Made by a program: the position numbers and the translations under genes. From Gaiellaceae bacterium (GTDB lineage Bacteria > Actinomycetota > Thermoleophilia > Gaiellales > Gaiellaceae), in contig DATLQV010000032.1 of the NCBI GenBank assembly GCA_035534955.1, positions 1,988 to 65,987 on the forward strand: a DNA stretch of 64,000 nucleotides. Reading direction: 5' to 3'. Below, in pieces: positions 20,033 to 46,817 of the stretch (the first letter of the stretch is position 1; each line of letters opens with the position of its first letter). The notes under the pieces are model-generated. The model did not search any database, had not been told where the DNA came from, and saw only the letters and a list, made by a program, of their open reading frames with translations.

Positions 20033-20048
20033 CGCGAAGGCAGAAGTG

Positions 20049-25620: not shown

Positions 25621-25644
25621 ACGCGAGTGATCACCACACCTAGC

Positions 25645-25977
25645 TCACGTTGAGGCGAACTCCCCGACGAGAACATCCCAACGTTCGACCGATTTCGTCT
25701 CGAGTACGTCAACGGTCGTCCACGGATCGTCTTCGAGCCGCGCTGCGGCTTCGCTCTCGTCGTCGGCGTTGACGACCAACATTGCTCGATACGGATTCCC
25801 ATCGCCAACGGGTCCGGCCACGATCAGGAAGCCTTCGTCCGCAATAGCGTTGATGAATTCGACGTGTTCAGGCCACTGGTCCTGTTCGCGCATCGCCAGC
25901 GACGCGTCCCACGCCCGGCTTTGTTCTCGATTAACCACGAAGTACACGGCTCGAGTCTGACAGGCGCATCCGGGCAC
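25645..25977 (-). CDS. YCII-related domain protein
   Basis: 'VYFVVNREQSRAWD...EHVEFINAIADEGFLIVAGPVGDG...YRAMLVVNADDESEAAARLEDDPW'. The likely true start is the GTG at 25947. Confidence 0.8.
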   Translation of the reverse strand: MPGCACQTRAVYFVVNREQSRAWDASLAMREQDQWPEHVEFINAIADEGFLIVAGPVGDGNPYRAMLVVNADDESEAAARLEDDPWTTVDVLETKSVERWDVLVGEFAST

Positions 25978-26063
25978 GTGCGGTCCAGGTTTGTCGGCAT
26001 CTCGTCGATAGGTCAGGCGTAGGCCCGCTGGGCCGCCTTTCGACGAAGGAGCAATCGCGGCCC

Positions 26064-27740: not shown

Positions 27741-27988
27741 GTGGGGTCTCCCGCCGGCTGCGCGCTCACCTGACCCCCAACGACCCTCAACAAGGTTTCT
27801 GGGCCGCTCGTTCAGGGGAAAAGGAGAAGGCGCGTCGGCGGCATGCAACCGGAGCCCGACGACCTCCGCTTTAGGACTCCGCCCCAGCAAACGGTCGGAA
27901 ATCAGATATCGGCAAAGCGGCCGATCAAGACCCGGCGGTTGGAGGCGACATCGATAGGTCAGCAATCAGGGCTTCGCACGCGACACCG

Positions 27989-32917: not shown

Positions 32918-33475
32918 TCAGTGGTTGTGCAGCGGGAACTTGCACGCGACCGCCGCGCGCACGAACGCCGGCGACTGCGGATCGAGCGAGGACGGGAACA
33001 CGAAGATCACGCCGTCGATGTCGGACACCTCACGAACGCCTGCGCCGAGGCTCCTCGGGACCGATGTCCCAGGATCAGGGAAGTTGGGGATGCCGTGCCC
33101 GCGCATGCACTCCGCGGCCTTCACCATCTGCGCCAGCCACTGCGTCGTGGGGTGCGTCTGCGCTCCAGGCGCGAGCCCGGCTCCGATCGGTAGGAACTTT
33201 GCGCACTTCGCGTGTGCCGTCCCGAATGCGGGCGACGAGGGATCGACTCCGCTGCCCACGCGGAATTGGAAGCCGCCGGAGCTCGGGTCCGGGAAGTTGG
33301 GCTCGCCGTTGGCTCGCATGCACGCGGCGAACTTCAGCAAGCTCTCCTGCAGCTGCGTTTGGGTCGGCGCCACGGCAGAGGCGGAGGTCGTCGTCGCGCC
33401 GACGCCGGCGACCGGCGGCGGCTTCGAGCCGCCGCCGCATGCAGCAAGCCCGACGACGGCGGCTGCGGCGAGCAC
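32918..33475 (-). CDS. Lipoprotein with two 'C-M-R-x-[HN]-G-x-x-x-F-P-D-P ... A-C' repeats (LpA)
   Basis: Lipobox 'VGLAAC'. 'CMRANGEPNFPDP...AKC' and 'CMRGHGIPNFPDP...VAC'. Start uncertain: GTG at 33475 gives a short signal peptide with no upstream canonical start. Confidence 0.75.
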   Translation of the reverse strand: MLAAAAVVGLAACGGGSKPPPVAGVGATTTSASAVAPTQTQLQESLLKFAACMRANGEPNFPDPSSGGFQFRVGSGVDPSSPAFGTAHAKCAKFLPIGAGLAPGAQTHPTTQWLAQMVKAAECMRGHGIPNFPDPGTSVPRSLGAGVREVSDIDGVIFVFPSSLDPQSPAFVRAAVACKFPLHNH

Positions 33476-33497
33476 TGCGAGTGCCCCAACCCTCGCG

Positions 33498-34091
33498 TCA
33501 ATGGCCGGCGTTGTTGATCGCCTCTCTCACTTTCGCGGCGGTGAGCCAACCGTGCGACGCCGGGAGACACGCCTGCACGACGTGCAGGAACGTCGGCGCG
33601 TGCACGTCGATGCCCTGCGCCTGCACCGCCGAGACCGGCAGCTGACCCTGCGCGGTCGGATCGGGGAAGCGCGCGATACCGTGGCTGCGCATGCACTTGG
33701 CGAAGGACAGCTCGGCTGCGAGCTGCGAGCGCTGTTGCGCGGCAGTTTGCTCCGTCCCCCCGGGACCGCTCGGGAGCAGGTGATTGCAGGCGTTCAAGGC
33801 GGACTGGACCGCCGGGTTCGTCCCGAACCCGTGGATGGTCAGCTTGACGTTGCCTCCGGCGAAGCGCTGCGGATCGGGGAAGTTCGGCACGCCGTTGGAG
33901 CGCATGCACTGCGAGAAGGCGAGCAGCGCGCTCGGCTGCGGCGGCGTCCCCGTCGTCGTGGCTGCGGTCGTCGTCGAAGAAACGGTGTTCGCAACGCCGG
34001 GCGAACCTCCGCCCCCGCCGCAACCGGCGGCTAAGAGTGAGAACGCCGCAACGGCGGCGACGAAGGCGAGGATGAGCGGACGGCGAGGCAT
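33498..34091 (-). CDS. Two-repeat Cys lipoprotein of the same family (LpB)
   Basis: Lipobox 'LLAAGC'. 'CMRSNGVPNFPDP...NAC' and 'CMRSHGIARFPDP...QAC'. ATG at 34091, trimmed from the track ORF. Confidence 0.8.
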   Translation of the reverse strand: MPRRPLILAFVAAVAAFSLLAAGCGGGGGSPGVANTVSSTTTAATTTGTPPQPSALLAFSQCMRSNGVPNFPDPQRFAGGNVKLTIHGFGTNPAVQSALNACNHLLPSGPGGTEQTAAQQRSQLAAELSFAKCMRSHGIARFPDPTAQGQLPVSAVQAQGIDVHAPTFLHVVQACLPASHGWLTAAKVREAINNAGH

Positions 34092-34104
34092 ATCGGTCCT
34101 TTCG

Positions 34105-35298
34105 TCACACGGTTCGGAGGGCTTCAGTCGGTGAGAGGCGGGCGGCGCGGATGGCGGGCAGGAGCCCGGCGACCGCGCCGATGAAGACGGCGGCGACGAG
34201 GCCGCCGGCCCACGCGGTCGTCGGCACGACGGTCGTCCAGTGCTTGAGGTGCGCGTAGACCGCGGTGGAAATCGCTCCGGCGGTGACGCCGACTGCGCCG
34301 CCGATGACGGCGAGCAGGATCGCCTCCGAGAGGAACTGCGCGCGGATGTTTCTCTTCGTGGCGCCGAGCGCCCGTCGCAGCCCGATCTCGCTGCGGCGCT
34401 CGAGGACGCCGATGAGCATGATGTTGGCGACGCCGACCGCGCCGACCAGAAGTGAGACGGCGCCGAGGCCGAGGAAGAGACTGTTGAGCGCACCTTGTGC
34501 GTCGGCGCGCGCGGTCAGCGCCGCCGACGGTTGGCTGACGTTGACCTCGTTCGGCGCTTCGGGATTCGCGGTCGCGCCAAGCACGGACTGCACCGCCGCT
34601 GTCTCACTCGTCACGGAGCGGACGTAGATGGTCGTGGGGTGCCCGTCGAAGCTGAGGTAGCGCTTCGCGGCCGCGAAGCCCACGAGCACGCTCGAGTCGA
34701 TCTCGGGAGCGAGCGCGGCGGAGTTGAGGATCCCGCCGAGGTAGAACCACATTCCGCCGAGCCAGATGCGCTCGCCGGGAAAGATGCGGTCGATACCGAG
34801 ACGCTGCGCGGCGGCGTAGCCGAGCACGGCGACCGGCTGCCGCGCGGTCGCCGCGTTGAGGAAGCTGCCGGCGGCGACGGTCGCGCCGACCGTCCGCGGC
34901 AGGCCGAGGCTCGCCGCCTGGACGGAAAGCGCGTTCGTGTTGACGGACGGGATGAGCGGGCTGCGGTAGACGTTCGCGCTCGTCGACCCCGTGTACTGCA
35001 CCTGCTGCACGGGGCCGATGCGCGCGATCATCCCCGGGGCAGCGAGCGGGAGCTCCGCGGTCTGTCCGAACAATGTCTGGCCGTTCTGCACCGTGAGCAG
35101 GTTGGTGCCGAGCTTGTCGATCTGCGCGAGCAGCCCCGCCTGCGACGACGAGGAGAGCCCGAGCACCGCCACGATCGCAGCGACACCGATCGCGATCCCC
35201 AGCGCCGAGAGCGCTGCGCGCATGCGCCGCGTGCGCAACCCGACGCTCGCGACGCGTGCGAGATCGGACAGCCGAAGCTTCGGCGACTCGATCCTCAA
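34105..35298 (-). CDS. MacB-type ABC transporter permease (FtsX fold, 4 TM, large extracytoplasmic domain)
   Basis: 'LRTRRMRAALSALGIAIGVAAIVAV', C-terminal 'RSEIGLRRALGATKRNIRAQFLSEA...LPAIRAARLSPTEALR'. Confidence 0.9.
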   Translation of the reverse strand: MRIESPKLRLSDLARVASVGLRTRRMRAALSALGIAIGVAAIVAVLGLSSSSQAGLLAQIDKLGTNLLTVQNGQTLFGQTAELPLAAPGMIARIGPVQQVQYTGSTSANVYRSPLIPSVNTNALSVQAASLGLPRTVGATVAAGSFLNAATARQPVAVLGYAAAQRLGIDRIFPGERIWLGGMWFYLGGILNSAALAPEIDSSVLVGFAAAKRYLSFDGHPTTIYVRSVTSETAAVQSVLGATANPEAPNEVNVSQPSAALTARADAQGALNSLFLGLGAVSLLVGAVGVANIMLIGVLERRSEIGLRRALGATKRNIRAQFLSEAILLAVIGGAVGVTAGAISTAVYAHLKHWTTVVPTTAWAGGLVAAVFIGAVAGLLPAIRAARLSPTEALRTV

Positions 35299-36722
35299 CG
35301 CGGTATGACGATGAGCGCGAATGCGGTGCTCCTCGATGTGCCGCGGACGGTGGCGGTGACGACAAAGCCTCCGGCGGTGTCGCCGGCGGTGAACAGCGGC
35401 GCCACGGCGATGCCGTTTGCGTTCGTCGCAACGCGCGCGACGCGGGTCCGATGCTTGTGCGGACGCTTGAAGGACCCGCTGGCGCCCTTGACGGGAGCCC
35501 TGAACACGACGACGGCGCCCTTGATGGGATTGCCGTGCACGTCGGTGACGGTGACGGCGAGTGGGACGTCGAAGCGCGAGCCGACGACGGTCGACGTGCC
35601 CGATGCCGCGCCGGTGCTGATCGCATACGGCGAGGACGCGAGGTTCGTCAGCGTGAATCCGAGCGGCTCCGCGCCCGCGGTGGACGCAGTGGCGCCGAAT
35701 GCGCCTGCAGTCTTGTCGGCGACGAGTGCAGGCGAGACCGCACGCCCGTCGGTGTCGGTGAGCGCGGTCGCCTGCGCGCCCCCGCCCAGGAAGCTCGCGC
35801 CTGCGCCGTTGTCGGCGGCGGCGATCGCGAAGGTGACCGTCGCCCCCTCGACCGGTTGCCCGGTCGCGTCGACGACCAGCGCCTGCAACCGGTCGCGATA
35901 GCTCGTGTCCACTCTTGCCGTCGGATCCTTCGGCGTCGAGTTCGAGAGCGTCATCGCGGCCGCGTGGTTGTCGAGCGCGAACATCGCCACGCTCGAGAGC
36001 CCGTCCGTCGACGCGGTGGCGGCGAACTTGCCCGGCACGCCGTTGGCGAGGAACGGCGGCGAGGTCGCGACGCCGTCGGCGTTCGTGACGGCGCTCGCCG
36101 GCCCGCCGCCGAGGAACGTCGCGCCCGCGCCGGTGGCACCTGGGAGGACGGCGAAGCTCACGGTGACGCCTTGCACACCGGCGCCGTTCGCATCGGTAAT
36201 CCGCACCTGCAGTGGCTGCGCGTACTGCGTGTTCACCACCGCCTCCGCCGTGCTCGATCCTTCCGGCGCGATCGCGGCGGGCAGACCGTTCGCGGTGTTG
36301 CTCAGGTCGATGCCGACGGTCCCGTAGTCTGAATGCGCGTCGACCGTGTACCCGCCGACGGTGAAGTTGGCGGTGAACGGCGGCGCGGTCGCCACTCCCT
36401 GGGAGTCCGTGCCGACGTAGGCCTCGCGCGATCCACTGCTGGCGAAGATGCCGCTCGCCCCGCTGCCGGGAGCGTCGAAGTTGACGGTGACGCCGGCGAG
36501 GTTCCCCGTGAGCGGGCAGCCGTTGGTGTTCGCGAGCGCAACTTGCAGGTTCTGCCCGAACTGTTTGCCGAGCTGCGCCTGCTGCCCACTGCCGCCCGCG
36601 AGCACGAGCTCGTTCGGTTGGTTCGACGTCGGACAGGCGTTCCCCGCCCCGCGCGCGCTGCCGCCCGCGACGGCGAGCACGACCGCCGCCATGACTGTGC
36701 CGAGAACGAGCACGCGCCTCAT
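35295..36722 (-). CDS. Secreted protein made of ~4 Ig-like (Big_1/invasin-type) repeats
   Basis: Signal peptide '[22 protein letters not shown]'. Recurring 'G..VTF......GA.F.....T.T(D)..G.A..P...A....G.....A' units. 4-nt overlaps with both ABC genes. Confidence 0.8.
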
Positions 36723-37408
36723 GTCGTTTCCTCCTTGCGGGTGTCCGAGACGACGCGGCCGTCGAGCAGCGTGATCCGGCGCGGGAAGCGGCCGGCGATC
36801 TCGTGGTCGTGCGTGATGACGACGATCGTGGCCCCGTCGGCGTTGAGCTCGTCGATCAACGCCATGATCCCGGCGCTCGTTGCGGAGTCGAGGTTGCCGG
36901 TCGGCTCGTCTGCGAGCACGATCGCCGGCCGCCCGACGAGGGCGCGTGCGATCGCGACACGCTGTCGCTCGCCGCCGGACAGCTGCGTCGGCCGGGAGTC
37001 CAGCCGATCGCCGAGCCCGACACGCATGAGCGCCTCTGCGGCGAGCGAGCGCCGCTCGTCGACGGACGGTCCGGCGTAGAGGAGCCCGTCGGCCACATTC
37101 TCGAGTGCGCTCGAGTGCTCCGACAGGAAGAACTGCTGGAAGACGAATCCAATTCGCGTCGCGCGCACCGCGGCGAGCTCTCGGTCCGACATCTCTGCGA
37201 CGTCGAGCCCCGTGATCGCGACGCGCCCGGAGGTCGGCCGGTCGAGCGTCCCCATTAGATGCAGGAGCGTCGACTTGCCCGAGCCCGACGGCCCGACGAT
37301 CGCAACGAGCTCGCCTGCGCGGACGACGAAGCTCACGCCCTGCAGCGCGTCCACGGGCGGATCGGATCCATACGACTTCGTCACGGTGTCGAGCTCGAGC
37401 GTCGTCAT
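36719..37408 (-). CDS. ABC transporter ATP-binding protein (MacB/LolD-type)
   Basis: Walker A 'GPSGSGKST', signature '[15 protein letters not shown]', Walker B '[12 protein letters not shown]'. Confidence 0.95.
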
Positions 37409-38802
37409 GACGCCGGCACCACGACGTGCTGGCCGGCAGTAAGACCCGAGCCGCTCACCTCGACCGTCCCGGCGGCGTCGTCGAACATCCCGACGCCGAC
37501 GCCGACGAGCTGGTGGACGCCAGTCGACTCGACTTCCTCCACCGCGTAGCCGCCGCTCGCGAGCGCGACTAGCGCGTTCACCGGCACGGCGAGGACGTTG
37601 CGCACGGTCGCCGTCGTGATCGACACGTCGACCGGCGCCTGATCGAGCCGTCCCGTCGCTGCCGCGCGATCGGGGGCGACATCCACCTCGATCGTCGGCG
37701 AGCCCGAACCGCCGCCGTTCTGGTCGGACGGCGTCGTCGCGACCGTGCCGACGTACGAGACGCGTCCAGGCGTCGTCGAGTTGTCGGGAAGCGTGATGAG
37801 CACCGGGTCACCGACCTTGATGCTCGATTGCTGCGACGCGTCGAGGGCGATCGTCACGACGCGACGAGTCGAGCTGATGCCCAGGACCGGCCCGGCTTGC
37901 ACCGGCGAGCCTTCGGTCGGAGTCACGCTCGTCACCCGCACCGCACCCGGCTCGAACACGACCGACCCGAGCGGCAACTGCCCGGTGGCCGGCAGGTGAT
38001 GCTGCGATTGGAACCGCTCGACCGCGATCGTCGTCGACGCTCCGAACACGTCGCTGCTCGGCGCGCCGTACCCCCGCAGGTCGCGGTTCAACTCGGCGAC
38101 GTCCGCGCCGGCCGACATCCCCGGCATGAACGCGCGCGACGCGGGCACGCCGCCGTACAAGAGGAACGCGGGCGCCGCGTTGATCGCGTACAGCGGCTGA
38201 CCGGCGCGAACGATCGCGCCAACCTTCGGCAGCATCGTGTACACCGCGTCCTGCCCGTAGGTCGCCGCCGACTCCTCGCCCTGGCTGAGCGTCGCGGATG
38301 CCGCCGAGAGCCCGCGCTGATCGGCCTGCACCTTTCCGGTGGCGGCGGTCACGTTCTGACGGTCGGCCGTGATCGCCTGGGCATCGGTCGCGCACGGACC
38401 GGTGCCGGTTTGCGCAGCGCTTCCGCCGCGGCAGTCGACCGCCACCTTGCGCATGTCGGCGTCCAGCGATCCCTGCGCCTGCGCGAGCGCGCGCTGGTCG
38501 TCGGCGAGCGTCTGCTGGGCAGATGCCACTGACTGCTGCGACTGCTCGAGACTGGACGGCGCCGTCCCGCTCGGAACCGACACGGTCGACGTACCGGCGT
38601 AGCCGAGCGTCGCGCTCACCTGCGTCTGCTGCGACAGGTCCATCCGCTTCACGGTCGCCACCGACGTGGCGGCCCCGTTGTCGGACACCCCGCTCGCAGC
38701 GGGCGAGCTGGACGCGAAGGGATCCGCGATCGCAACAGCCACTCCGGCAACGAGCAGCACCACCGCGCCTGCGGCCACCAGTCGCTTGCGCGCACGGGTC
38801 AT
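37405..38802 (-). CDS. Membrane-fusion/periplasmic-adaptor (HlyD/MacA-like) protein with embedded peptidoglycan-binding domain
   Basis: N-terminal TM '[18 protein letters not shown]', a coiled-coil stretch, and PG_binding-like '[20 protein letters not shown]'. ATG at 38802, trimmed from the track ORF. Confidence 0.8.
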
Positions 38803-38806
38803 CGGC

Positions 38807-39412
38807 TCACCCGCCCTTGAACGGCATGTACTTCTGGCAGGCCTGCTGGGCCTTTTGGAAGGTCGGGTTGTTCGGCTCGAGATCGCTGCCGGGATGGACC
38901 GAGATCCGGAGACCGCCGTTCGAGGGGTCGGGGAAGTCTTTGAGCCCGTGCGCACGCATGCAGGCCGAGAACACGAGCAGCTTCTGCTGCTGCTGCGCGA
39001 TCTGCGCCGGTGTCGGCCGGCCACCGTTCGGAAGCAGCTTGGAACAGGTCGCCTGGGCGGACCGGAACGCCGGCGAGCCCGGGTCGAGCCCCATGCCCGA
39101 GTTGATCGTGATCACTCCCTGGCTGTTCGGATCGGGATAGTTCGGGAGGCCGTGCTTGCGCATGCAGGCAGAGAACTTCTCTCCGTCGGCCGCGTTTCCG
39201 GTCCGCATCGAGAGCGAGAACTGGCCGTGCCCGCCGCCGGGCGGGCCGAACGGCTTCCCTCCCGAGCTGGAACCGCTCTGTGTCGTCGTCGTACCGCCGG
39301 TCGTGGAGGAGTCGGCGAGGTTCGCAACCCCGGGGGCCTTCCCGCCGCCGCCGCAGCCCGCAGCGAGGAGCCCAAGGGCGCCGACCACGACGATGAGGGC
39401 GATGCAGCGCAT
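38807..39412 (-). CDS. Two-repeat Cys lipoprotein of the same family (LpC)
   Basis: Lipobox 'LLAAGC'. 'CMRKHGLPNYPDP...ATC' and 'CMRAHGLKDFPDP...QAC'. Confidence 0.8.
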   Translation of the reverse strand: MRCIALIVVVGALGLLAAGCGGGGKAPGVANLADSSTTGGTTTTQSGSSSGGKPFGPPGGGHGQFSLSMRTGNAADGEKFSACMRKHGLPNYPDPNSQGVITINSGMGLDPGSPAFRSAQATCSKLLPNGGRPTPAQIAQQQQKLLVFSACMRAHGLKDFPDPSNGGLRISVHPGSDLEPNNPTFQKAQQACQKYMPFKGG

Positions 39413-39497
39413 GCCGAAGAGATAGCCGGGCCTCGGTTACGGCGGGGGAACAGAAGCTGTTACCTGCGCGTAACCCGGGCTGGGGCATCCTTTGCTG

Positions 39498-40157
39498 ATG
39501 CGGGTTCTCGTCGTCGAAGACCACAAGGAGCTCGCCGCCACGATCGCGGTCGGGTTGCGCCGCGAGGGAATGGCCGTCGACATCGCCTTCGACGGCGAGG
39601 ACGCGCTGCGTCACGCCGCCGGGGACAGCTACGAGGTGATCCTGCTCGACCGCGACATTCCCAAGATCCACGGCGACGACGTCTGCCGTGCGCTCGTTGC
39701 GCGCGGGTCGCGGTCGCGTGTGCTCATGTTGACCGCCTCCGACGCGATCGAAGACCGGGTGGACGGGCTCGGCCTCGGCGCCGACGACTACCTGCCGAAG
39801 CCGTTCGCATTCGCCGAGCTCGTCGCGCGCATCCGTGCACTTGCCCGCCGCGGCCAGGCCGGGCGCGCACCGACCCTCGCGCGCGGCGACCTCCGCCTCG
39901 ACACCGTGCAGCGGGTCGCGACGCGCGCCGGCCGCCGGCTCGAGCTGAGCAGCAAGGAGCTCGCCGTGCTCGAGCTCCTGCTCGCTGCCGGCGGCGCTCC
40001 GGTCCCGACACGCGAGCTGCTCGCCCGCGGCTGGGACGAGTACGTCGACCCCGACGGCAGCGTCGTCAAGGTCACGATCAGCCGGCTGCGGCGCAAGCTC
40101 GGCGACCCGCCGATGATCGAGACCGTCCCCCACACCGGTTACCGGATCAATCCGTGA
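39498..40157 (+). CDS. OmpR-family response regulator (RR1)
   Basis: 'MRVLVVEDHKEL', 'VILLDRDIPKIHGDD', 'LSSKELAVLELLL', 'TVPHTGYRI'. Confidence 0.95.
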   Translation: MRVLVVEDHKELAATIAVGLRREGMAVDIAFDGEDALRHAAGDSYEVILLDRDIPKIHGDDVCRALVARGSRSRVLMLTASDAIEDRVDGLGLGADDYLPKPFAFAELVARIRALARRGQAGRAPTLARGDLRLDTVQRVATRAGRRLELSSKELAVLELLLAAGGAPVPTRELLARGWDEYVDPDGSVVKVTISRLRRKLGDPPMIETVPHTGYRINP

Positions 40158-41329
40158 CGATCAGGCTTCGGCTCACGCTCATCTACGGCGGGCTCTTCCT
40201 CTGCTCGGCGGTGGCGTTGCTCGCCATCACCTACACGCTCGTCAACCACCAGTACACGAGCACGTTCTTCGTCAGCTCGGGGCGACAGGCACTGATCGCG
40301 AAGGCGTATCCCACCAAGCGTCTGCTCGGCGCCAGCCCTACGCCGAAAGGCTTCATAGTCCCGGTCGGCCCGAAGGCGTTCGCCACCAACTCGAAACTCG
40401 TGGTCGCCGCCGCGCAAGGGCAGTCGGACGCAGCCGTGCACAAGCTGTTCGTCGACTCCGCATTCGCGCTCGCCGTCATGACGGTTATCTCGCTCTGGCT
40501 CGGCTGGGTGATCGCCGGACGCGCATTGCGCCCGCTGCGGACGATCACCGAAACCGCGCGGGAGATCTCCGCGAGCAGCCTTCACCGCCGGCTCGACCTC
40601 GCCGGCCCCGACGACGAGCTCAGGCAGCTCGGAAACACCGTCGACGGACTGCTGGGCCGGCTCGAGACATCCTTCGAGGCGCAACGACAGTTCGTCGCCA
40701 ACGCATCGCACGAGCTGCGCACACCGCTCACGCTCGAGCGCACCCTGCTCGAGCTCGCATTGAGCGACCCGAATGCCAGCATCGAGTCCTACCGGCACAC
40801 GTGCGAGCAGCTTCTCGCCGTCGGCGAGCAGCAGGAGCGCCTGATCGAAGCGCTGCTCATGCTCTCGCGCAGCCAACGGGGTGTCGACAGCCATCAACCC
40901 GTCGATCTCGCCGCGATCGCTTCGGCCGCAGCAGCGGCGGTGGATCATGACGGCCTGGCATTCGACACTTCGATCGAGCCCGCGCACACGACCGGCAATC
41001 CGCGCCTGGTCGAGCGGCTCGTCGCCAACCTCGTCGGCAACGCGATCCGGCACAACGTCGAGAACGGAACCGTCAGCCTCGCGACCGAGACGCGCGGCGG
41101 TCGCGCGCTTCTCACGATCACGAACTCCGGACCGACGATTCCGCCGGCCGAGCTCTACCGGCTCTTCCAGCCGTTCCAACGTCTCGAGGGAAGCCGCACG
41201 AACAGTCACGGGCTCGGACTCGGCCTCTCGATCGTGCGTGCGGTCGCGGATGCGCACGACGCGACCATCGCTACGGACGCGCCGGACGACGGCGGCCTCC
41301 GTATCCAGGTCAGCTTCCCCAGCTCATGA
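40154..41329 (+). CDS. Sensor histidine kinase (HK1; 2 TM, HAMP, HisKA, HATPase_c)
   Basis: GTG at 40154 overlaps the RR1 stop (GTGA). 'ASHELRTPLTL', 'LVGNAIRHN', 'NSGPTI', 'HGLGLGLSIV'. The N-terminal 496 aa of the track ORF are rejected. Confidence 0.9.
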   Translation: MTIRLRLTLIYGGLFLCSAVALLAITYTLVNHQYTSTFFVSSGRQALIAKAYPTKRLLGASPTPKGFIVPVGPKAFATNSKLVVAAAQGQSDAAVHKLFVDSAFALAVMTVISLWLGWVIAGRALRPLRTITETAREISASSLHRRLDLAGPDDELRQLGNTVDGLLGRLETSFEAQRQFVANASHELRTPLTLERTLLELALSDPNASIESYRHTCEQLLAVGEQQERLIEALLMLSRSQRGVDSHQPVDLAAIASAAAAAVDHDGLAFDTSIEPAHTTGNPRLVERLVANLVGNAIRHNVENGTVSLATETRGGRALLTITNSGPTIPPAELYRLFQPFQRLEGSRTNSHGLGLGLSIVRAVADAHDATIATDAPDDGGLRIQVSFPSS

Positions 41330-41842
41330 GCCATTCGGATGGGTCCGCGCGTAGGCGTCGTACGCGGAGTTCGACGGCATGTACGGCGGCCGGTACTTCC
41401 CGCACGCCTGGTTCGCTGCCTGGAACCTCGGCGAGCCCTGGTTGATTCCGACAGTTGCGGGATCGGGGATGCGACCGCTGCTGTCCGGGTCGGGGAAGTT
41501 CGGCACGCCGTGGGCGCGCACGCACCGGGCATAGCTCAGCCCCTGAGCTTTCTCCTGCTGGAGCTGGGCCTGGTTCGGCGGCCGTCCGCCGTTCGGGAGC
41601 AGGTGTTGGCACGCCCGCTGAGCCGACTGGAACCGCGCGCTCGTCACACCGAGCCGCTCGACGCTCTCCTTGGGGATCGCGCCGCCGCTGCCGGGGTCGG
41701 GGAAGTTCGACACGCCGTTCGAGCGCATGCACTGGGAGAACGCGAGCGGCCCGCTCCCCTGCACCGACACCGAGGGATGTGCCCCGCACGCGGAGACCAA
41801 GAGGACGGTGGCTATGACGGCGACGACGGACGAGGCTCTCAT
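41324..41842 (-). CDS. Two-repeat Cys lipoprotein of the same family (LpD)
   Basis: Lipobox 'LLVSAC'. 'CMRSNGVSNFPDP...RAC' and 'CVRAHGVPNFPDP...QAC'. Its 3' end overlaps the HK1 3' end by 6 nt (convergent). Confidence 0.8.
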   Translation of the reverse strand: MRASSVVAVIATVLLVSACGAHPSVSVQGSGPLAFSQCMRSNGVSNFPDPGSGGAIPKESVERLGVTSARFQSAQRACQHLLPNGGRPPNQAQLQQEKAQGLSYARCVRAHGVPNFPDPDSSGRIPDPATVGINQGSPRFQAANQACGKYRPPYMPSNSAYDAYARTHPNGS

Positions 41843-42321
41843 GACACGCCGAGTGCCGTCTGCGCCTGTTGCTCGCAGGCAGTCTCCACCGTCTGGAACT
41901 GCGGCGAGTTCGGATCGATCCCCGAAGGCAAGGCCTGTTGTCCGAGATGCGTCGGATCGGGAAAGTCGGGATATCCGCGTGCGCGCAAGCACTCGGCGAC
42001 CTTCACGCCAAACTCGAGCTTCAGTTGCTGCTGCGCCGGCGTGGCGGTGCCGCCGCTCGAGAGCCGGCGGCGGCAGGCCTCGTCAGCAACGCTCGACGTC
42101 TGCTTCGAAACACCGGTATCGAACGGAGGGAACTTCCCCTGCGCGTCAGGGTCGGGAAAGCTCGGCACTCCATGTGAGCGCATGCAGCGCGCGAAGGCCA
42201 GCGCAGCGTTCGGCTGCGCCGACTGAGTCGAAGCACGCGGACTCGATGAGCCACCGCATGCGGAGACGAGCAACGACAGTGCCCCAACTGCGAGGGCGAG
42301 GAGCAGCAGGCGCGGATGCAT
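41839..42321 (-). CDS. Two-repeat Cys lipoprotein of the same family (LpE)
   Basis: Lipobox 'LLVSAC'. 'CMRSHGVPSFPDP...EAC' and 'CLRARGYPDFPDP...TAC'. ATGA overlap with LpD. Confidence 0.8.
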   Translation of the reverse strand: MHPRLLLLALAVGALSLLVSACGGSSSPRASTQSAQPNAALAFARCMRSHGVPSFPDPDAQGKFPPFDTGVSKQTSSVADEACRRRLSSGGTATPAQQQLKLEFGVKVAECLRARGYPDFPDPTHLGQQALPSGIDPNSPQFQTVETACEQQAQTALGVS

Positions 42322-42365
42322 GTTGTCGATGTTCGCTTGGCCCGATGACAGCGGCACGTGCCCGC

Positions 42366-42383
42366 GATGAAAAGCTGATGAAA
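42366..42383. promoter_or_regulatory. Direct repeat GATGAAA-N4-GATGAAA (11-nt period) between divergent LpE and RR2 genes; candidate OmpR-type binding site
   Basis: Read directly: 'cGATGAAAagctGATGAAAgcg'. Two further GATG(A/T) units lie at 42328 and 42344. Confidence 0.35.
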
Positions 42384-42418
42384 GCGACTTCCCGCAGGCC
42401 TGGAAGGACCGTGTTTGC

Positions 42419-43129
42419 GTGACACTGCGTCGTGTGACCGGCGATGACCGAACGGCAGCGTCGATCCTGGTCGTCGAGGACGACGAGCAGATCGCGGAGC
42501 TGATGCGCGATTTCCTCGAGGCGGAGGGCTTCCGCGTGCGGCATGCGGCCAGCGGGCGCGAGACGACCGAGCAGTTCGAGCGGGGTCGTCCCGACCTGGT
42601 GCTGCTGGATGTCATGCTGCCCGACGAGTCCGGCTTCGAGATCTGCCGTCGCCTGCGCCGTGACTCGACCGTGCCGGTGCTGTTCCTGAGCGCACGCGAC
42701 AGCGACGCCGACAAGATCCGGGGGCTCGGTCTCGGCGGTGACGACTACATCGTCAAGTCCGCCACACCGGCGGAGGTTGTCGCCCGCGTCAAGGCGGTCC
42801 TGCGACGCACGTCTCCGTCCGGCGGTCAGAGGTTGCACTTGGGCGGGCTGGAGGTCGACCTCGCCGCGCACGAGGTCAGCTGCGAGGGGCGGCAGATGGT
42901 GCTGACGGCACGCGAGTTCGAGCTGCTGCGCGTGCTCATCGAGCATCCGCGGCAGGTGTTCAGCCGCGACCAGCTGTTCGAGCTCGTCTGGGGCTCGTTC
43001 GGCGACCGCAGCGCAGTCGCCGGTTACATCGCCCGGCTCCGTCAGAAGCTCGAGCCCGACCCGGCGAGCCCGCGCTACATCGTCACCGTCTGGGGCGCCG
43101 GCTACCGGCTCGACCCGGGCAACAAATGA
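42419..43129 (+). CDS. OmpR-family response regulator (RR2)
   Basis: 'ILVVEDDEQIAEL', 'LVLLDVMLPDESG', 'LTAREFELLRVLI', 'VWGAGYRL'. Confidence 0.95.
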   Translation: MTLRRVTGDDRTAASILVVEDDEQIAELMRDFLEAEGFRVRHAASGRETTEQFERGRPDLVLLDVMLPDESGFEICRRLRRDSTVPVLFLSARDSDADKIRGLGLGGDDYIVKSATPAEVVARVKAVLRRTSPSGGQRLHLGGLEVDLAAHEVSCEGRQMVLTAREFELLRVLIEHPRQVFSRDQLFELVWGSFGDRSAVAGYIARLRQKLEPDPASPRYIVTVWGAGYRLDPGNK

Positions 43130-44475
43130 GACGAGCGCCGGTCCGCATCCGGACGTTTCTCCTCGGCACCGTGCTCGTGTTGCTGGTGCTGCCGACGCTG
43201 GCCGGTGGCGCAGGCTGGTTGATCGAACGCGACCACCAACGGGCGAGCATCCGTGAGCGGCTGAACGCCGCCGCTGCGTACCTCACCTCCCATCGCAGCG
43301 AGATACACGCGCCGGCAACCATCCACGGATTCGCGCGGCTGGTCGACCGGTTCGATCTGCTCGGGCAGCTGGTCATCATCGGGCCTTCCGAGAAGGCGGT
43401 GCTCTACGTCAGTCCGAGCCTCGAGCAGGGATTCCAAGGCAAGACGCCGCCCGGCCGGGACGATGACCGCCGGCTCTTGGAGGTCGGAACGACCAAATCG
43501 CGGGCGACTCTGGTCACCGACCTGTATTACCGGCCGGCCTCCAGCACCACAGCGCCGCTCGTCGCGCTCCTCAGCGGACTCATCGTCTTCCTCGCCGGGC
43601 TCGCGCTCGCGGTCTGGCTCGCCGGCCGCTGGATGGTCGCGCCGCTCGCCAGGCTCAGCGCCCAGGTCGACAAGGTCGCCGGCGGCGAGCTGACGATCGA
43701 TGTCCCACGCAGCCGGATCGGCGAGGTCGCGAACATCGCGCAGGCGGTCGAGGGCATGACAGACGCGCTCGGCGAGACCGCGAAACGACGAGCCGAAGCC
43801 GACGAGGCAAGACGGTTCCTCGTCACGAGCATCGCCCACGACCTGCGCACACCGCTGTTCGCGCTCCGCGGACATCTGCAGGCGATCGGCTCTCGGCTGG
43901 GCGACCCAGGCGTCCACCTCGAGCGCGCCGAAGCACGAGCAGACGCGCTCGAACGACTGATCGGCAACCTGTTCGCCTACACGCGCGACGACTACGCCCA
44001 GCCGGCGCCCCAACTCGAAGCGGCACCGGTGGCCGGCCTGCTCGGCGAGGTCGCGGTTGGCCTCGAGCATACGACCCGCCTCCGAGACAACACGTTCGAC
44101 TTCGACGGCGACCGGACGCTCGCCGTCATCGTCGACCGCGACCGGTTCAAACGCGCTCTCACCAACGTCCTCGACAACGCGCTTCACTACAGCCCGCCGG
44201 GCGCTCCGATCCACCTCAGCTGGGCGGCCGCCGGCGAATCGGTCGTCCAGATCACCGTCCGGGATCACGGACCGGGAATCGACCCCGACGTCCTCCCGCA
44301 CGTCTTCGAGCCCGGCATTCGCGGGACACCGGCAGCCGGCAGCGCCGACAACGGAGCCGGGCTCGGCCTCACGATCGCGAAACGCCTCCTCGAACACCAA
44401 CACGCCACCCTCACCGTCGACAACCAACAGACCGGAGGCGCAGTCATCATCCTCACGCTCCAGCGCGCGCTGTAG
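43126..44475 (+). CDS. Sensor histidine kinase (HK2)
   Basis: ATGA overlap with RR2. 'IAHDLRTPLFAL', 'VLDNALHYSP', 'DHGPGI', 'GAGLGLTIA'. Confidence 0.9.
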   Translation: MRRAPVRIRTFLLGTVLVLLVLPTLAGGAGWLIERDHQRASIRERLNAAAAYLTSHRSEIHAPATIHGFARLVDRFDLLGQLVIIGPSEKAVLYVSPSLEQGFQGKTPPGRDDDRRLLEVGTTKSRATLVTDLYYRPASSTTAPLVALLSGLIVFLAGLALAVWLAGRWMVAPLARLSAQVDKVAGGELTIDVPRSRIGEVANIAQAVEGMTDALGETAKRRAEADEARRFLVTSIAHDLRTPLFALRGHLQAIGSRLGDPGVHLERAEARADALERLIGNLFAYTRDDYAQPAPQLEAAPVAGLLGEVAVGLEHTTRLRDNTFDFDGDRTLAVIVDRDRFKRALTNVLDNALHYSPPGAPIHLSWAAAGESVVQITVRDHGPGIDPDVLPHVFEPGIRGTPAAGSADNGAGLGLTIAKRLLEHQHATLTVDNQQTGGAVIILTLQRAL

Positions 44476-44503: not shown

Positions 44504-46063
44504 GTGGACGCTCCCGCGAGCCCGATGTTGTCGGCATTGCAGCTGGCGACATTTGCCGAGCTCGGCGAGGAGCGGACGGCAAAGGTCGGTGACGTGCTCT
44601 ATCGCGTCGGTGATCCGACGTATCCGTTCATCGCCATCCTCGACGGCGAAGCGGCGATCCTGGACAGCGCCGGCAACGAGCTCGTCCGCCATGGGACGTC
44701 GGGCTTCCTGGGGGAGTTGAATCTGCTCTCGGGGCAGACGGTCTTCGTCACGGCAGTGGTCACACAGCCGTTGCGCTATATCGCCGTCGACCGCGAGGCG
44801 TTGCGGTCGCTGCTGTTCGAAGACGGCCCGCTGAGCGATCTCCTGCTCTCGACCTTCATCGCGCGCCGCGAGGCGTTGCAGACGGTCCAGGGCGTCGGTC
44901 TGGAGATCGTCGGCCCCCACTCGTCGGAAGCGACCATGCGGATGCTCGAGTTCGCCCGAGGCAACCGCCTTCCGTACACGTGGGAGGACGTGTCGCCACC
45001 CGCCGGAGGACCGTTGCCGCTCGTGCGCTTGCCGGGCGGCGCCGAGTTGCGCGGGCCGACCACCGGCGAGGTCTCGCGCGCACTCGGGATCGGCCGGGAG
45101 CTCGCGCCCCTGGAGGAGGCCGATCTGGTCGTGGTCGGCGCCGGACCGGCCGGTCTCGGTGCGGCGGTCTACGGGGCCTCCGAAGGCCTCGACACGCTCA
45201 TCGTCGAGAGCACTGCACTCGGCGGTCAGGCCGGCTCGTCCCGCCGCATCGAGAACTACCTCGGCTTCCCTGCCGGGATCTCGGGATCGGAGCTGACGAG
45301 CCGCGCAGTCACCCAGGCGCGGAAGTTCGGGGCGCGCATGGCGTCGCCGTACCGCGCAGTGTCGCTCGAACCGGGAACGGATCGACACCTCGTCCATCTG
45401 GAAGACGATCACGTGATCGCCGCGCGCGCCGTCTTGCTTGCGCCCGGCGCCCAGTACCGCCGGCTCCCCGTCGACGGGCTCGCCGAGTACGAGGGGCTCA
45501 CCGCCTTCTACGCGGCGGGACCGCCCGAGGCGCAGCTCTGCGTCGCGTCGCGTGTTGCAGTCGTCGGCGGCGGCAACTCGGCCGGCCAGGCCGCGGTGTG
45601 GCTCGCACGCGGCGGAGCGCTCGTGACGCTGCTGCATCGTCGCGCCGATCTGCGCGAGACGATGTCCGACTACCTCGTGCGCGAGCTCGAACGTTTCGGG
45701 GTGGTCGTGCGTGACCGCAGCGAGATCGCCGCGCTGCACGGGAAGGACGGGCACCTGAACGCCGTCACCCTGAAGAGCGGAGAGCAGCTGCCGTTCTCGT
45801 TTCTGTTCCTCTTCCTCGGCGCGAAGCCCTGCACCGAGTGGCTCGACGACGCCGTCGCACGCGACGACAAGGGCTTCATCCTCACGGGCGCCGGCGCCGC
45901 CGCTGAGAACCTGCTCGAGACCGACACTCCGGGCATCTTCGCGGCCGGCGACGTCCGCTCAGGATCGACCAAGCGCTGCGCGACCGCCGTCGGCGAAGGA
46001 GCGATGGCCGTGCAGTTCGTCCACGCCCACCTCGCGGAGGATTCGCCCAAGCAAGCGGCGTGA
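44504..46063 (+). CDS. Cyclic-nucleotide-binding domain fused to thioredoxin-reductase-like FAD/NAD(P) oxidoreductase
   Basis: cNMP domain 'GDVLYRVGD...GFLGELNLLSGQ', then 'LVVVGAGPAGLGAAVYGASEG', 'VAVVGGGNSAGQAA', 'IFAAGDVR'. Confidence 0.9.
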   Translation: MDAPASPMLSALQLATFAELGEERTAKVGDVLYRVGDPTYPFIAILDGEAAILDSAGNELVRHGTSGFLGELNLLSGQTVFVTAVVTQPLRYIAVDREALRSLLFEDGPLSDLLLSTFIARREALQTVQGVGLEIVGPHSSEATMRMLEFARGNRLPYTWEDVSPPAGGPLPLVRLPGGAELRGPTTGEVSRALGIGRELAPLEEADLVVVGAGPAGLGAAVYGASEGLDTLIVESTALGGQAGSSRRIENYLGFPAGISGSELTSRAVTQARKFGARMASPYRAVSLEPGTDRHLVHLEDDHVIAARAVLLAPGAQYRRLPVDGLAEYEGLTAFYAAGPPEAQLCVASRVAVVGGGNSAGQAAVWLARGGALVTLLHRRADLRETMSDYLVRELERFGVVVRDRSEIAALHGKDGHLNAVTLKSGEQLPFSFLFLFLGAKPCTEWLDDAVARDDKGFILTGAGAAAENLLETDTPGIFAAGDVRSGSTKRCATAVGEGAMAVQFVHAHLAEDSPKQAA

Positions 46064-46070: not shown

Positions 46071-46724
46071 CTAGGAGTCGAGCAGCGGGAAGACGATCGT
46101 CTCTTCCTTCGTCATGTGCGCCGTCACGAGCGCATCGAGGCGATGGAACTCGCGCGTGAGACAGGCGCGGTCGTCGCGGTCGATGCGGGCGAGCTCGCAC
46201 GCCTCTTCTTCGATGGCGCGATGGTCGAGCAGCATCGCTTCGATCAGTGGGCCGCCGCCGTGCAGCCGTTCGACCGCTGGATAGATCTCCAATTCTTCGA
46301 CACGCGCATGGTGCAGGATCCGGCGCATCAGGTCGATCGTGACCAGTGCGAACTCGTGGCAGCGCACGTCGGTGAGCCCGGGCAGGATCTGTACGGCGGC
46401 GCGCAGCTCTCGCAACTCCTCTTCGAGGCTGCCGTGCTCGGCGCGCAGCGCACGTAGCGTCTCGACGCGCGCCGCCATCGTCTCGATGTCTGCTCCGAAG
46501 ACTCTCGCCGCCGCCGATTCGATCCGAATGGGATCGCCGGTCCTCAGCTCCAATTCGACCGCCGACGGCTGCCGTCGAACGACGGAAACGTCCGCGAGCC
46601 GAACCTCGTGCGGCTCCTCACGGCCGGCCGGCGTGAACGCGACCGCCCTGGGCGTCAGCTCGAGACGGCCGGGGACGGCCGCCCCGCCGTCTTCCTGCCA
46701 CGAAGCCGAATACGTCGTCTTCAT
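46071..46724 (-). CDS. Hemerythrin HHE cation-binding domain protein with N-terminal PH/GRAM-like domain
   Basis: C-terminal 'HHARVEELEIYPAV...DHRAIEEE...HMTKEETIVFPLL'. ATG at 46724, trimmed from the track ORF. Confidence 0.7.
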   Translation of the reverse strand: MKTTYSASWQEDGGAAVPGRLELTPRAVAFTPAGREEPHEVRLADVSVVRRQPSAVELELRTGDPIRIESAAARVFGADIETMAARVETLRALRAEHGSLEEELRELRAAVQILPGLTDVRCHEFALVTIDLMRRILHHARVEELEIYPAVERLHGGGPLIEAMLLDHRAIEEEACELARIDRDDRACLTREFHRLDALVTAHMTKEETIVFPLLDS

Positions 46725-46817
46725 TGCTTCGATTCTGCGCTCCCCAGGCGAACCCGGCATCGGGTCGCACCCTGAGCCCGTCAGCGGAGAAACGCCGATG
46801 TCGCCGGCGCCGACCGG

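What the first reader, a model, noticed from the sequence alone, without database searches (positions are those of the whole stretch)
32918..44475. Five-fold expansion of an uncharacterised two-repeat Cys lipoprotein family around a MacAB-like exporter and two two-component systems
Seen in sequence:
- Five lipoproteins (LpA-LpE, 160-201 aa) each have a lipobox (L-[AVS]-[AG]-C).
- Each contains two copies of a ~55-aa repeat: C-[MVL]-R-x-[HNR]-G-x-x-x-[FY]-P-D-P, then 20-45 variable residues, then [FV]-x-x-[AV]-x-x-[AT]-C.
- That gives ten repeats with two Cys apiece, presumably one disulfide per repeat.
- Three of the genes (LpC, LpB, LpA) bracket a single tightly packed minus-strand operon: LpC, PG-binding membrane-fusion protein, ABC ATPase, Ig-repeat secreted protein, MacB/FtsX permease, LpB, LpA.
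- The other two (LpE, LpD, ATGA-coupled) sit between the two OmpR/HK pairs, each divergent from one RR gene.
- The HK1 and LpD 3' ends overlap by 6 nt.
- The conserved motif is strong enough to generate recurring antisense pseudo-ORFs in the track ('GKFGTP.ERMH').

Inference: I do not recognise this repeat as a named domain. MacB-type ABC systems include both peptide or toxin exporters and LolCDE, which extracts lipoproteins. So the locus could be an envelope-stress or antimicrobial-peptide module that uses the lipoproteins as sensors or binders. It could also be a dedicated lipoprotein-handling system.
Basis: partly seen in the sequence, partly recalled or inferred. Interest (0 to 1): 0.8.

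Follow-up and report, generated by a model that had tools for sequence, protein, structure and literature searches.

The report
Unnamed lipoprotein family beside antibiotic-pump cassette
Five copies of an unnamed, probably new-fold lipoprotein sit in a sensor-plus-export-pump gene cassette that is widespread in soil Actinomycetota and also lies inside Streptomyces gene clusters for cell-wall-binding "type V" glycopeptide antibiotics, so it is a testable candidate for the unknown resistance system to those drugs.

Summary
Five genes (LpA-LpE) carry ten copies of C-x-R-x-x-G-x3-[FY]-P-D-P...C. None occurs elsewhere in the window, and none in 200 random sequences.

The family has no Pfam, NCBIfam or PDB sequence match. 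A confident AlphaFold model (pLDDT 85, all-helical) has no Foldseek match. The family is large: 9,393 clusters at 50% identity, almost all with two repeats.

Related loci share one self-contained block: HK<-RR | Lp->PG-binding adaptor->ABC ATPase->MacB permease. A conserved palindromic operator lies in the divergent promoter. Several Lp copies per locus is common (46 of 77 loci), so the five-fold expansion is typical of the family.

New lead: in eight Streptomyces loci the same Lp-adaptor-ATPase-permease module abuts glycopeptide-type biosynthetic genes. In the corbomycin producer the Lp is crbV ("Unknown") and crbW is "peptidoglycan binding protein, resistance (proposed)". The window has no NRPS, so its cassette is an orphan copy.

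Best reading (about 0.5): an inducible MacB-type module against a wall-acting antibiotic, with the lipoproteins as fast-evolving capture, immunity or co-sensor proteins. Substrate and lipoprotein role are inferred. A lipoprotein-trafficking role is poorly supported.

The parts
32918..33475 (-). LpA, two-repeat Cys protein (185 aa from the GTG start). The signal peptide is atypically short.
   Evidence: Possible ATT start at 33499-33497. Orthologue in L023 is 70% identical.
33498..34091 (-). LpB, two-repeat lipoprotein (197 aa, lipobox LAAGC).
34105..35298 (-). MacB-type permease (397 aa) with 4 TM segments and a periplasmic core domain.
   Evidence: Pfam MacB_PCD 2.8e-17 and FtsX 3.2e-20. TM pattern.
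35295..36722 (-). Secreted Ig-like (Big_1) repeat protein (475 aa) inserted between the ATPase and permease genes. It is clade-specific.
   Evidence: Pfam Big_1 1.2e-13. Present in only 9 of 77 related loci.
36719..37408 (-). ABC ATPase (229 aa) of the MacB/LolD/FtsE type.
   Evidence: Pfam ABC_tran 1.5e-33. NCBIfam LolD, MacB and FtsE models all score below cut-off.
37405..38802 (-). Membrane-anchored HlyD-type adaptor (465 aa) with an inserted PG_binding_1 domain. A Cys pair (C124/C137) lies in the coiled-coil region, presumed to be the hairpin tip.
   Evidence: Pfam PG_binding_1 1.2e-07 and HlyD_3 6.5e-06. Cys pair conserved in 11 of 11 clade members.
38807..39412 (-). LpC, two-repeat lipoprotein (201 aa). 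It is the first gene of the pump operon, which is the canonical position for the family.
39435..39475 (.). 41-bp imperfect palindrome in the LpC|RR1 divergent promoter region. It is the putative RR1 operator.
   Evidence: Unique in the window, with 0 matches in shuffles. Conserved in L015, L023 and L062. A related palindrome lies upstream of Lp genes in 36 of 77 loci.
39492..40157 (+). RR1, OmpR-family response regulator.
   Evidence: Pfam. Best NCBIfam models are VanR-O and the heavy-metal RR subfamily, both below cut-off.
40154..41329 (+). HK1, HAMP-HisKA-HATPase sensor kinase with an extracytoplasmic loop of about 64 aa.
41324..41842 (-). LpD, two-repeat lipoprotein (172 aa).
   Evidence: AlphaFold model pLDDT 85.
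41839..42321 (-). LpE, two-repeat lipoprotein (160 aa), joined to LpD by an ATGA overlap.
42344..42383 (.). Three direct repeats, GATGA[CA]A, starting at 42344, 42366 and 42377 (spacings 22 and 11 bp) in the LpE|RR2 intergenic region. They are the putative RR2 boxes.
   Evidence: Conserved as TTTCATCG repeats in the relatives whose RR2 is 80% identical or more (9 of the 10 loci listed), while the flanks vary.
42419..43129 (+). RR2, OmpR-family response regulator.
43126..44475 (+). HK2, HAMP-HisKA-HATPase sensor kinase with an extracytoplasmic loop of about 103 aa.

Best explanation
The region is an orphan (non-producer) copy of a conserved actinobacterial envelope cassette. The cassette pairs an OmpR/HK two-component system, transcribed divergently, with an operon of Lp, PG-binding HlyD-type adaptor, ABC ATPase and MacB-type permease. 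Here it is enlarged by four more Lp paralogues, a second two-component system and an Ig-repeat protein.

Proposed working.
1. A wall-acting compound is sensed outside the membrane by the kinase, possibly with an Lp as co-receptor.
2. The regulator binds the conserved operator and switches on the Lp genes and the pump.
3. The MacB permease cannot carry substrates across the membrane. It uses ATP-driven movement of its periplasmic domain to expel compound captured at the outer face, through the adaptor anchored in peptidoglycan.
4. The Lps, held at the membrane surface, bind the compound through their variable inter-helix loops. They then shield the wall, hand the compound to the pump, or report it to the kinase.

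The most likely substrate class is a peptidoglycan-binding cross-linked peptide of the type V glycopeptide kind.

Shown: gene content, homology, synteny, conserved operators, purifying selection, and the link to biosynthetic clusters in Streptomyces.
Inferred: substrate, regulation, the disulfide, and which of the three roles the Lps play.
For: - The conserved block across unrelated flanks is exactly HK-RR|Lp-adaptor-ATPase-permease, about 6.5 kb.
- Of 59 loci with enough flank, 29 have two-component system plus pump, 15 have the two-component system only, 2 have the pump only and 13 have neither.
- An operator-like palindrome lies upstream of Lp genes in 36 of 77 loci. Four of these loci have no matched TCS or pump gene within the sequence held (L043, L045, L072, L073), though L043 and L073 are contig-limited. 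Window-specific operators.
- The homologous four-gene module abuts NRPS, Oxy-type P450 or Hpg-biosynthesis genes in all 8 Streptomyces loci examined.
- In Streptomyces sp. WAC01529 the module is crbV (Unknown), crbW (peptidoglycan binding protein, proposed resistance), crbX and crbY of the corbomycin cluster. The GP6738 cluster has kinase, regulator, permease, ATPase, PG-binding protein and a 543-bp 'Unknown' gene in one run (PMC7567792 supplementary tables 2 and 4).
- Window proteins against crbV-Y: Lp 31-38%, adaptor 33%, ATPase 58%, permease 52% identity.
- Type V glycopeptide clusters lack canonical van resistance genes and carry unassigned genes.
- The Lp genes and the Ig gene evolve faster (dN/dS 0.26-0.43) than the pump and two-component genes (0.10-0.24), yet remain under purifying selection.
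- 122 of 149 diverse family members have a lipobox. Of those, 111 have exactly four further Cys.
Against: - No experiment on any member was found.
- The biosynthetic-cluster link was seen only in Streptomyces. It was absent from all 77 loci from other genomes, from the window and from Nonomuraea. Those Streptomyces modules are the most divergent from the window, so substrate transfer by homology is weak.
- The Lp family is tied more tightly to two-component systems (44 of 59 loci) than to pumps (31 of 59), which fits a sensory role as well as a pump role.
- The 77 loci are the best matches to one peptide pattern, so the percentages are biased.
- 'Resistance' for crbW is the authors' proposal, not a result.
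Confidence: 0.5

Rival explanations
1. The Lps are mainly co-sensors. They act as membrane-anchored ligand-presenting partners of the histidine kinases, in the manner of LpqB-MtrB, CseA-CseC or HbpS-SenS. The pump is only one of several outputs of the regulon.
For: - 15 of 59 loci have an Lp with a two-component system and no pump. LpE and LpD sit with RR2/HK2 without a pump of their own.
- Operator sites precede Lp genes even in loci where no two-component system matched within the sequence held.
- Both kinases have only short extracytoplasmic loops of about 64 and 103 aa.
Against: - Streptomyces biosynthetic clusters keep Lp, adaptor, ATPase and permease together without an adjacent two-component system.
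- Lp is the first gene of the pump operon in about 47 of 77 loci.
- The two roles are not mutually exclusive.
Confidence: 0.2
2. The cassette is a soft-metal (Cu/Ag/Zn-type) homeostasis module analogous to cusRS-cusCFBA. The Lps would be metallochaperones that use the conserved Cys, Met and His.
For: - The motif C-M-R-x-H-G has Cys 99%, Met 97% and His 84% across 303 repeats.
- RR1 and HK1 score well against the heavy-metal RR and HK subfamily models (173 and 180 bits).
- The architecture of sensor, small periplasmic protein, adaptor and pump parallels Cus.
Against: - Both heavy-metal models are below cut-off (279 and 292 bits), and VanR-O/VanS-O score equally or higher.
- His is replaced by Asn in 14% of repeats, and in the window by Asn or Arg in 4 of 10.
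- Exactly four Cys per mature protein, one pair per repeat, fits disulfides.
- From my own knowledge, MacB-type pumps are not known metal exporters.
- The Streptomyces link to biosynthetic clusters is unexplained by this reading.
Confidence: 0.07
3. The ABC complex is an FtsEX-like regulator of cell-wall hydrolases rather than an exporter. The Lps would be adaptors or inhibitors of autolysins. This would protect wall remodelling, which is the process that type V glycopeptides block.
For: - The adaptor has a PG-binding domain.
- The MacB/FtsX superfamily works by mechanotransmission.
- Complestatin and corbomycin act by binding peptidoglycan and blocking autolysins (abstract of PMC10581084; PMC10350919).
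Against: - The permease matches MacB_PCD and MacB models far better than FtsX models (112 against 26-29 bits).
- A HlyD-type adaptor is present.
- No hydrolase gene lies in the conserved block.
Confidence: 0.08
4. The system handles lipoproteins in a Lol-like or Aat-like way, and the Lps are its cargo.
For: - The Lp genes are always co-oriented with the pump genes and often multiple.
- The ATPase's best NCBIfam model is LolD (228 bits).
- The Aat system is a precedent for a MacB-like machine that moves a lipoprotein (bioRxiv 10.1101/2020.09.23.310854, listed).
Against: - The LolD score is below its cut-off of 308, and LolCE scores 33.5 against 362.
- There is a single permease gene, an adaptor is present, and no LolA/LolB-like gene or acyltransferase lies in the block.
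- The hosts are Actinomycetota, presumed from general knowledge to lack an outer membrane that would receive cargo.
- Lps occur without pumps in many loci.
Confidence: 0.05

Closest known systems
crbV-crbW-crbX-crbY of the corbomycin cluster (Streptomyces sp. WAC01529) and orf2-7 of the GP6738 cluster (PMC7567792, supplementary tables 2 and 4)
   Same: The four gene families are the same and in the same order: two-repeat Lp, PG-binding adaptor, ABC ATPase, MacB permease. GP6738 also has the kinase and regulator. Identity to the window proteins is 31-38%, 33%, 58% and 52%.
   Different: Those copies lie inside glycopeptide biosynthetic clusters and have one Lp. The window copy is orphan, with no NRPS in 64 kb. 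It has five Lps, two two-component systems and an extra Ig-repeat gene. The published tables give the Lp as 'Unknown' and offer no functional data.
MacAB-TolC tripartite efflux pump (type VII ABC, mechanotransmission)
   Same: Both have a permease with 4 TM segments plus a periplasmic core domain, a cognate ABC ATPase and a HlyD-family adaptor.
   Different: Here the ATPase is a separate polypeptide. No TolC-like duct is present. The adaptor carries a PG_binding_1 insert and a Cys-bridged coiled-coil region. An extra lipoprotein partner has no equivalent in MacAB.
Lantibiotic immunity modules LanI + LanFEG + LanRK (for example NisI/NisFEG/NisRK)
   Same: The logic matches: a membrane-anchored immunity lipoprotein (two-domain in NisI, from my own knowledge), an ABC exporter and a two-component system. 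These modules are found both in producers' clusters and as orphan resistance cassettes.
   Different: There is no sequence or fold relationship. The Lps are all-helical with no PDB match. The transporter is MacB-type with an adaptor, not ABC-2 type.
VanRS-vanHAX glycopeptide resistance cassette
   Same: Both are inducible cassettes found in producer clusters and in non-producers. RR1 and HK1 have VanR-O/VanS-O as their top NCBIfam models. Published annotations call the cluster kinases 'VanS'.
   Different: Scores are far below the VanR-O/VanS-O cut-offs. There are no vanH, vanA or vanX genes. The output is a pump plus lipoproteins rather than cell-wall precursor remodelling.
BceRS-BceAB peptide-antibiotic detoxification modules of Firmicutes
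   Same: Both pair a two-component system with a MacB-superfamily ABC transporter that acts on wall-targeting peptides.
   Different: BceB has 10 TM segments, and BceS lacks an extracellular loop and HAMP domain. Here the permease has 4 TM segments and the kinases have loops and HAMP domains. Bce modules have no adaptor or lipoprotein.

Membership tests
MacB-type (type VII) ABC exporter with adaptor | Permease with MacB periplasmic core domain plus a C-terminal FtsX 4-TM module | tested here: met
   Pfam MacB_PCD 64 bits (cut-off 27) and FtsX 73 bits (cut-off 25.5). Four hydrophobic segments.
MacB-type (type VII) ABC exporter with adaptor | HlyD-family membrane-fusion/adaptor protein encoded alongside | tested here: met
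   HlyD_3 27.3 bits (cut-off 22.2), with an N-terminal TM anchor.
MacB-type (type VII) ABC exporter with adaptor | TolC-like outer-membrane exit duct | tested here: not met
   No such gene lies in the operon or in the conserved block. The hosts are Actinomycetota.
MacB equivalog (NCBIfam NF007826, fused ATPase-permease) | Whole-protein score above the curated cut-off | tested here: not met
   112 bits (permease) and 225 bits (ATPase) against a cut-off of 966. The ATPase and permease are separate genes.
LolCDE lipoprotein-release system | LolC/LolE-type permeases above the curated cut-off, and no adaptor | tested here: not met
   lolCE 33.5 bits against 362. LolD 228 bits against 308. There is one permease gene, and an adaptor is present.
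crbVWXY-type module of type V glycopeptide clusters | Homologous Lp, PG-binding adaptor, ABC ATPase and MacB permease in that order | tested here: met
   tblastn of window proteins against L087 (CP029617.1): all four match, at E 1e-14 to 1e-97, in the same order and strand.
crbVWXY-type module of type V glycopeptide clusters | Location inside or beside a glycopeptide-type NRPS/Oxy-P450/Hpg cluster | tested here: not met
   The window has no ORF over 800 aa and no Oxy, Hpg or NRPS match.
VanRS (VanR-O/VanS-O) | Score above the curated cut-off, with adjacent vanHAX | tested here: not met
   199.7 against 505 bits and 180 against 720 bits. No van genes are in the region.
Heavy-metal two-component systems (TIGR01387/TIGR01386) | Score above the curated cut-off | tested here: not met
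   173 against 279 bits and 180 against 292.6 bits.
Bacterial lipoprotein (Lgt/Lsp substrate) | Signal peptide with a positive n-region, a hydrophobic core and a lipobox ending in Cys | tested here: inconclusive
   Met by sequence for LpB-LpE. LpA lacks a charged n-region unless it starts at a rare ATT. 122 of 149 family members have a lipobox-like site. Lipidation itself cannot be tested here.
Any named protein domain or solved fold for the repeat | Significant profile or structure match | tested here: not met
   Pfam and NCBIfam: none. PDB profile search: 0 hits at E<=10. Foldseek best E was 1.4 and 3.4, with TM below 0.3.

The most novel reading that the evidence does not exclude
The two-repeat Cys lipoproteins are a new-fold family of antibiotic-binding immunity or sensor proteins. 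The Lp/PG-binding adaptor/MacB cassette with its two-component system would then be the missing self-resistance and environmental resistance determinant for peptidoglycan-binding type V glycopeptides (complestatin and corbomycin class). Multiple fast-evolving Lp paralogues would set the range of compounds recognised.
Probability: 0.25. Interest if true: 0.85.

Novelty: new variant of a known kind. Interest (0 to 1): 0.62.

Why it matters
Type V glycopeptides (complestatin, corbomycin, rimomycin) are drug leads. One reason is that no dedicated resistance mechanism is known for them. Their biosynthetic clusters lack van genes and carry unassigned genes.

This analysis ties one of those 'Unknown' genes (crbV) and its neighbours to a very large, unnamed and structurally unmatched lipoprotein family. 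It also ties them to a self-contained sensor-pump cassette spread through soil Actinomycetota. If the cassette confers resistance, that resistance reservoir already exists in soil.

Either way, the work defines a protein family of about 9,400 clusters that merits a name. It also gives a concrete six-gene unit, with predicted operators, that can be cloned and tested.

Tried and rejected
- Pfam and NCBIfam scans of the five Lps, of 124 aligned homologues and of the longest family members found no domain and no fusion partner. Weak NUC153, CX9C, COX17 and DUF732 hits were sub-threshold and treated as noise.
- A PDB profile search and two Foldseek searches (models of pLDDT 71 and 85) found nothing.
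It was rerun with a tighter alignment.
- Single-linkage clustering of six-frame ORFs merged overlapping frames and was abandoned in favour of tblastx coverage.
- A plasmid-collection search gave loci but no annotation.
- The vanO and Rhodococcus lead from the VanR-O hit was not pursued beyond one search.
- Neighbours in loci with only a two-component system showed no common theme.
- Promoter and terminator consensus scans were at chance level.
- Several literature searches for the cassette, for crbV-Y and for type V self-resistance found no functional study. The original complestatin cluster paper was not available.

Full report
**Observation.** The window is about 70% G+C. Between 32918 and 44475 it encodes thirteen genes.
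- Minus strand: LpA, LpB, a MacB-type permease, an Ig-repeat secreted protein, an ABC ATPase, a HlyD-type adaptor with a PG_binding_1 domain, and LpC.
- Plus strand: RR1 and HK1.
- Minus strand: LpD and LpE.
- Plus strand: RR2 and HK2.

Pfam confirms the transporter, adaptor, Ig and two-component assignments. A six-frame search finds ten C-x-R-x-x-G-x3-[FY]-P-D-P motifs, two in each Lp gene and none elsewhere. None appeared in 200 random sequences of matched dinucleotide content. Each motif is followed by a single Cys 37-55 residues later. The antisense 'GSGKFGTP.ERMH' ORFs are the mirror image of the motif.

The LpB and LpC lipobox reads LAAGC. LpA has a 12-residue signal peptide without a charged n-region, unless it starts at an ATT that overlaps the LpB stop codon.

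**The family.** None of the five proteins matches a Pfam or NCBIfam model, nor do 124 aligned homologues. A profile of the ten repeats finds 9,393 cluster representatives at 50% identity with E<=1e-3, and 5,116 with E<=1e-10. Almost all have two repeats and 140-250 residues. Every source name is 'hypothetical protein' or 'lipoprotein'.

In 303 repeats from 149 diverse members, conservation is: first Cys 99%, Met 97%, Arg 99%, His 84% (Asn 14%), Gly 99%, Phe 94%, P-D-P 96-100%, last Cys 100%. A lipobox is present in 122 of 149 members, and 111 of those have exactly four more Cys. The longest members show no domain fusions.

AlphaFold models of LpC (pLDDT 71) and LpD (pLDDT 85, pTM 0.62) are all-helical. 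Each repeat is built as helix, long loop, helix. Neither model matches a PDB fold, and a PDB sequence profile search finds nothing. The family is therefore real, large, unnamed and structurally unmatched. The intra-repeat disulfide is plausible from the Cys count but was not tested.

**Genomic context.** A scan of one genome per species returned 77 loci. Nearly all are from uncultured Actinomycetota: Thermoleophilia/Gaiellales/Solirubrobacterales, Acidimicrobiia, Streptosporangiaceae, Nocardioides and Galbitalea.
- In about 47 loci the Lp gene is followed on the same strand by orthologues of the adaptor, ATPase and permease (permease mostly 62-89% identical). It is preceded divergently by an RR1-like regulator and a kinase.
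- tblastx coverage shows that the conserved block is exactly these six genes, about 6.5 kb, with unrelated flanks.
- Among 59 loci with enough flank, 29 have two-component system plus pump, 15 have the two-component system only, 2 have the pump only and 13 have neither.
- Two or more Lp genes occur in 46 of 77 loci, and up to nine Lp-matching ORFs (some of them overlapping calls) were counted in one locus.
- The five-gene set itself is conserved in the closest relative, L023. The Ig-repeat gene occurs in only 9 of 77 loci.

The sample is biased towards relatives of one repeat pattern, so these fractions are indicative only.

**Regulation (inferred).** The LpC|RR1 intergenic region holds a 41-bp imperfect palindrome at 39435-39475. 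It is unique in the window and conserved in L015, L023 and L062. Other clades carry a related palindrome at the same place: ATGACA-N6-TAACA-N5-TGTT-N~8-TGTCAT. A loose pattern for it hits 36 of 77 loci, nearly always just upstream of Lp genes. These include extra Lp genes and loci in which no matched two-component system lies within the sequence held.

The LpE|RR2 region has three direct repeats with 22-bp and 11-bp spacing. They are conserved as TTTCATCG repeats in the nine relatives whose RR2 is at least 80% identical, while the flanking sequence varies. This fits OmpR-family regulators controlling the divergent promoters, with the Lp genes as core regulon members. Binding itself is not shown.

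**Evolution.** Against L023, the Lp genes (dN/dS 0.26-0.43) and the Ig gene (0.35) evolve faster than the pump and two-component genes (0.10-0.24). All are under purifying selection. This is the pattern expected of surface proteins that face a variable ligand.

**Link to glycopeptide clusters.** The family also occurs in Streptomyces. In S. formicae, S. spectabilis, S. xinghaiensis, S. alboniger, Streptomyces sp. NPDC002018, an S. chartreusis plasmid and Streptomyces sp. WAC01529, the Lp/PG-binding adaptor/ATPase/permease module lies directly beside genes typical of a glycopeptide-type cluster. These include NRPS genes, two or three Oxy-type P450s, ferredoxin, in S. formicae a halogenase, and Hpg-biosynthesis genes.

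WAC01529 is the corbomycin producer. In the published cluster table the Lp is crbV ('-', Unknown), crbW is 'Peptidoglycan binding protein / Resistance', and crbX and crbY are the ABC ATPase and permease. The GP6738 cluster lists kinase, regulator, permease, ATPase, PG-binding protein and a 543-bp 'Unknown' gene in one run, plus a second two-component system (PMC7567792 supplementary tables 2 and 4). I could not check the GP6738 'Unknown' gene by sequence.

Window proteins are 31-38% (Lp), 33% (adaptor), 58% (ATPase) and 52% (permease) identical to crbV-Y. None of the 77 loci from other genomes, nor the window, nor a Nonomuraea locus, has such biosynthetic genes within 10 kb. The window has no ORF over 800 aa.

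The literature held here states that type V glycopeptide clusters lack canonical resistance genes and contain unassigned genes. I found no functional work on crbV-Y.

**Interpretation.** The best-supported reading is an inducible envelope module directed at a wall-acting compound. It is built on a MacB-type mechanotransmission pump, with an adaptor anchored in peptidoglycan and membrane-tethered Lps that capture, shield against or report the compound. The orphan and in-cluster distribution resembles that of vanRS-vanHAX. The logic resembles LanI/LanFEG/LanRK immunity, without homology to either.

Which role the Lps play remains open.
- The tighter Lp link to two-component systems favours a sensory part.
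- The Streptomyces modules that lack an adjacent two-component system favour a pump or immunity part.
- A metal-chaperone reading draws on the Cys/Met/His motif and the heavy-metal-like scores of RR1 and HK1. It is weakened by His variability, by the four-Cys pattern and by the transporter type.
- A Lol-like reading fails the LolCE test and ignores the adaptor.
- An FtsEX-like hydrolase-control reading cannot be excluded, but it lacks a hydrolase gene and fits the Pfam and NCBIfam matches less well.

**Verdict.** The pump and sensors are known kinds. The lipoprotein family, and its constant partnership with them, is new as a described entity. The connection to type V glycopeptide clusters turns an open question, what protects against these drugs, into a direct experiment.

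Noticed in passing
window 33476-33529 (minus strand): LpA's only canonical start (GTG at 33475) gives a 12-residue signal peptide without Lys or Arg. An in-frame ATT at 33499-33497, overlapping the LpB stop codon, would give MDARVGALAVLAAAAVVGLAAC. The L023 orthologue has no ATT there and also starts with a short signal peptide.
   Followed up: partly
window 37405-38802 (adaptor residues 124 and 137): The adaptor's coiled-coil region, presumed to be the hairpin tip, carries a Cys pair enclosing a Gly/Ser-rich loop of very variable length. The pair is conserved in 11 of 11 clade members where the alignment spans it. It sits where MacA would contact TolC and could be a docking site.
   Followed up: partly
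window 35295-36722: A secreted protein with Big_1 (Ig-like) repeats is wedged between the ATPase and permease genes with 4-nt overlaps on both sides. It occurs only in the window's own clade (9 of 77 loci) and evolves fast (dN/dS 0.35). Its role is unknown.
   Followed up: partly
L007 and L022 (about 8.6-18.3 kb in each locus): In these relatives the second two-component system sits co-directionally between the Lp genes and the pump operon, instead of divergently. The GP6738 cluster also has two two-component systems. The double-sensor layout may therefore be a recurring variant.
   Followed up: no
L043, L045, L072, L073: Lp genes in these loci have no matched two-component or pump gene within the sequence held, yet still carry the operator-like palindrome upstream. 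This suggests control in trans by a cassette elsewhere in the genome. L043 and L073 are limited by contig ends.
   Followed up: partly
window 44504-46063 (+) and 46071-47135 (-): Directly downstream of HK2 lies a 519-aa ORF. By eye it looks like a cyclic-nucleotide-binding domain fused to a thioredoxin-reductase-like flavoprotein. It is followed by an ORF with hemerythrin-like HHE motifs. Neither was scanned against any library.
   Followed up: no
window 1-2000, 4001-6000, 20001-28000, 58001-62000: G+C drops to 0.64-0.66 in these stretches against about 0.70 elsewhere. They could be islands or a different kind of gene content.
   Followed up: no
L019, L074 and L039: A few family members come from records labelled Terriglobales or Acidobacteriota, and one from a 254-bp contig in a Ciceribacter assembly. 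These could reflect real transfer outside Actinomycetota, or binning or contamination errors.
   Followed up: no
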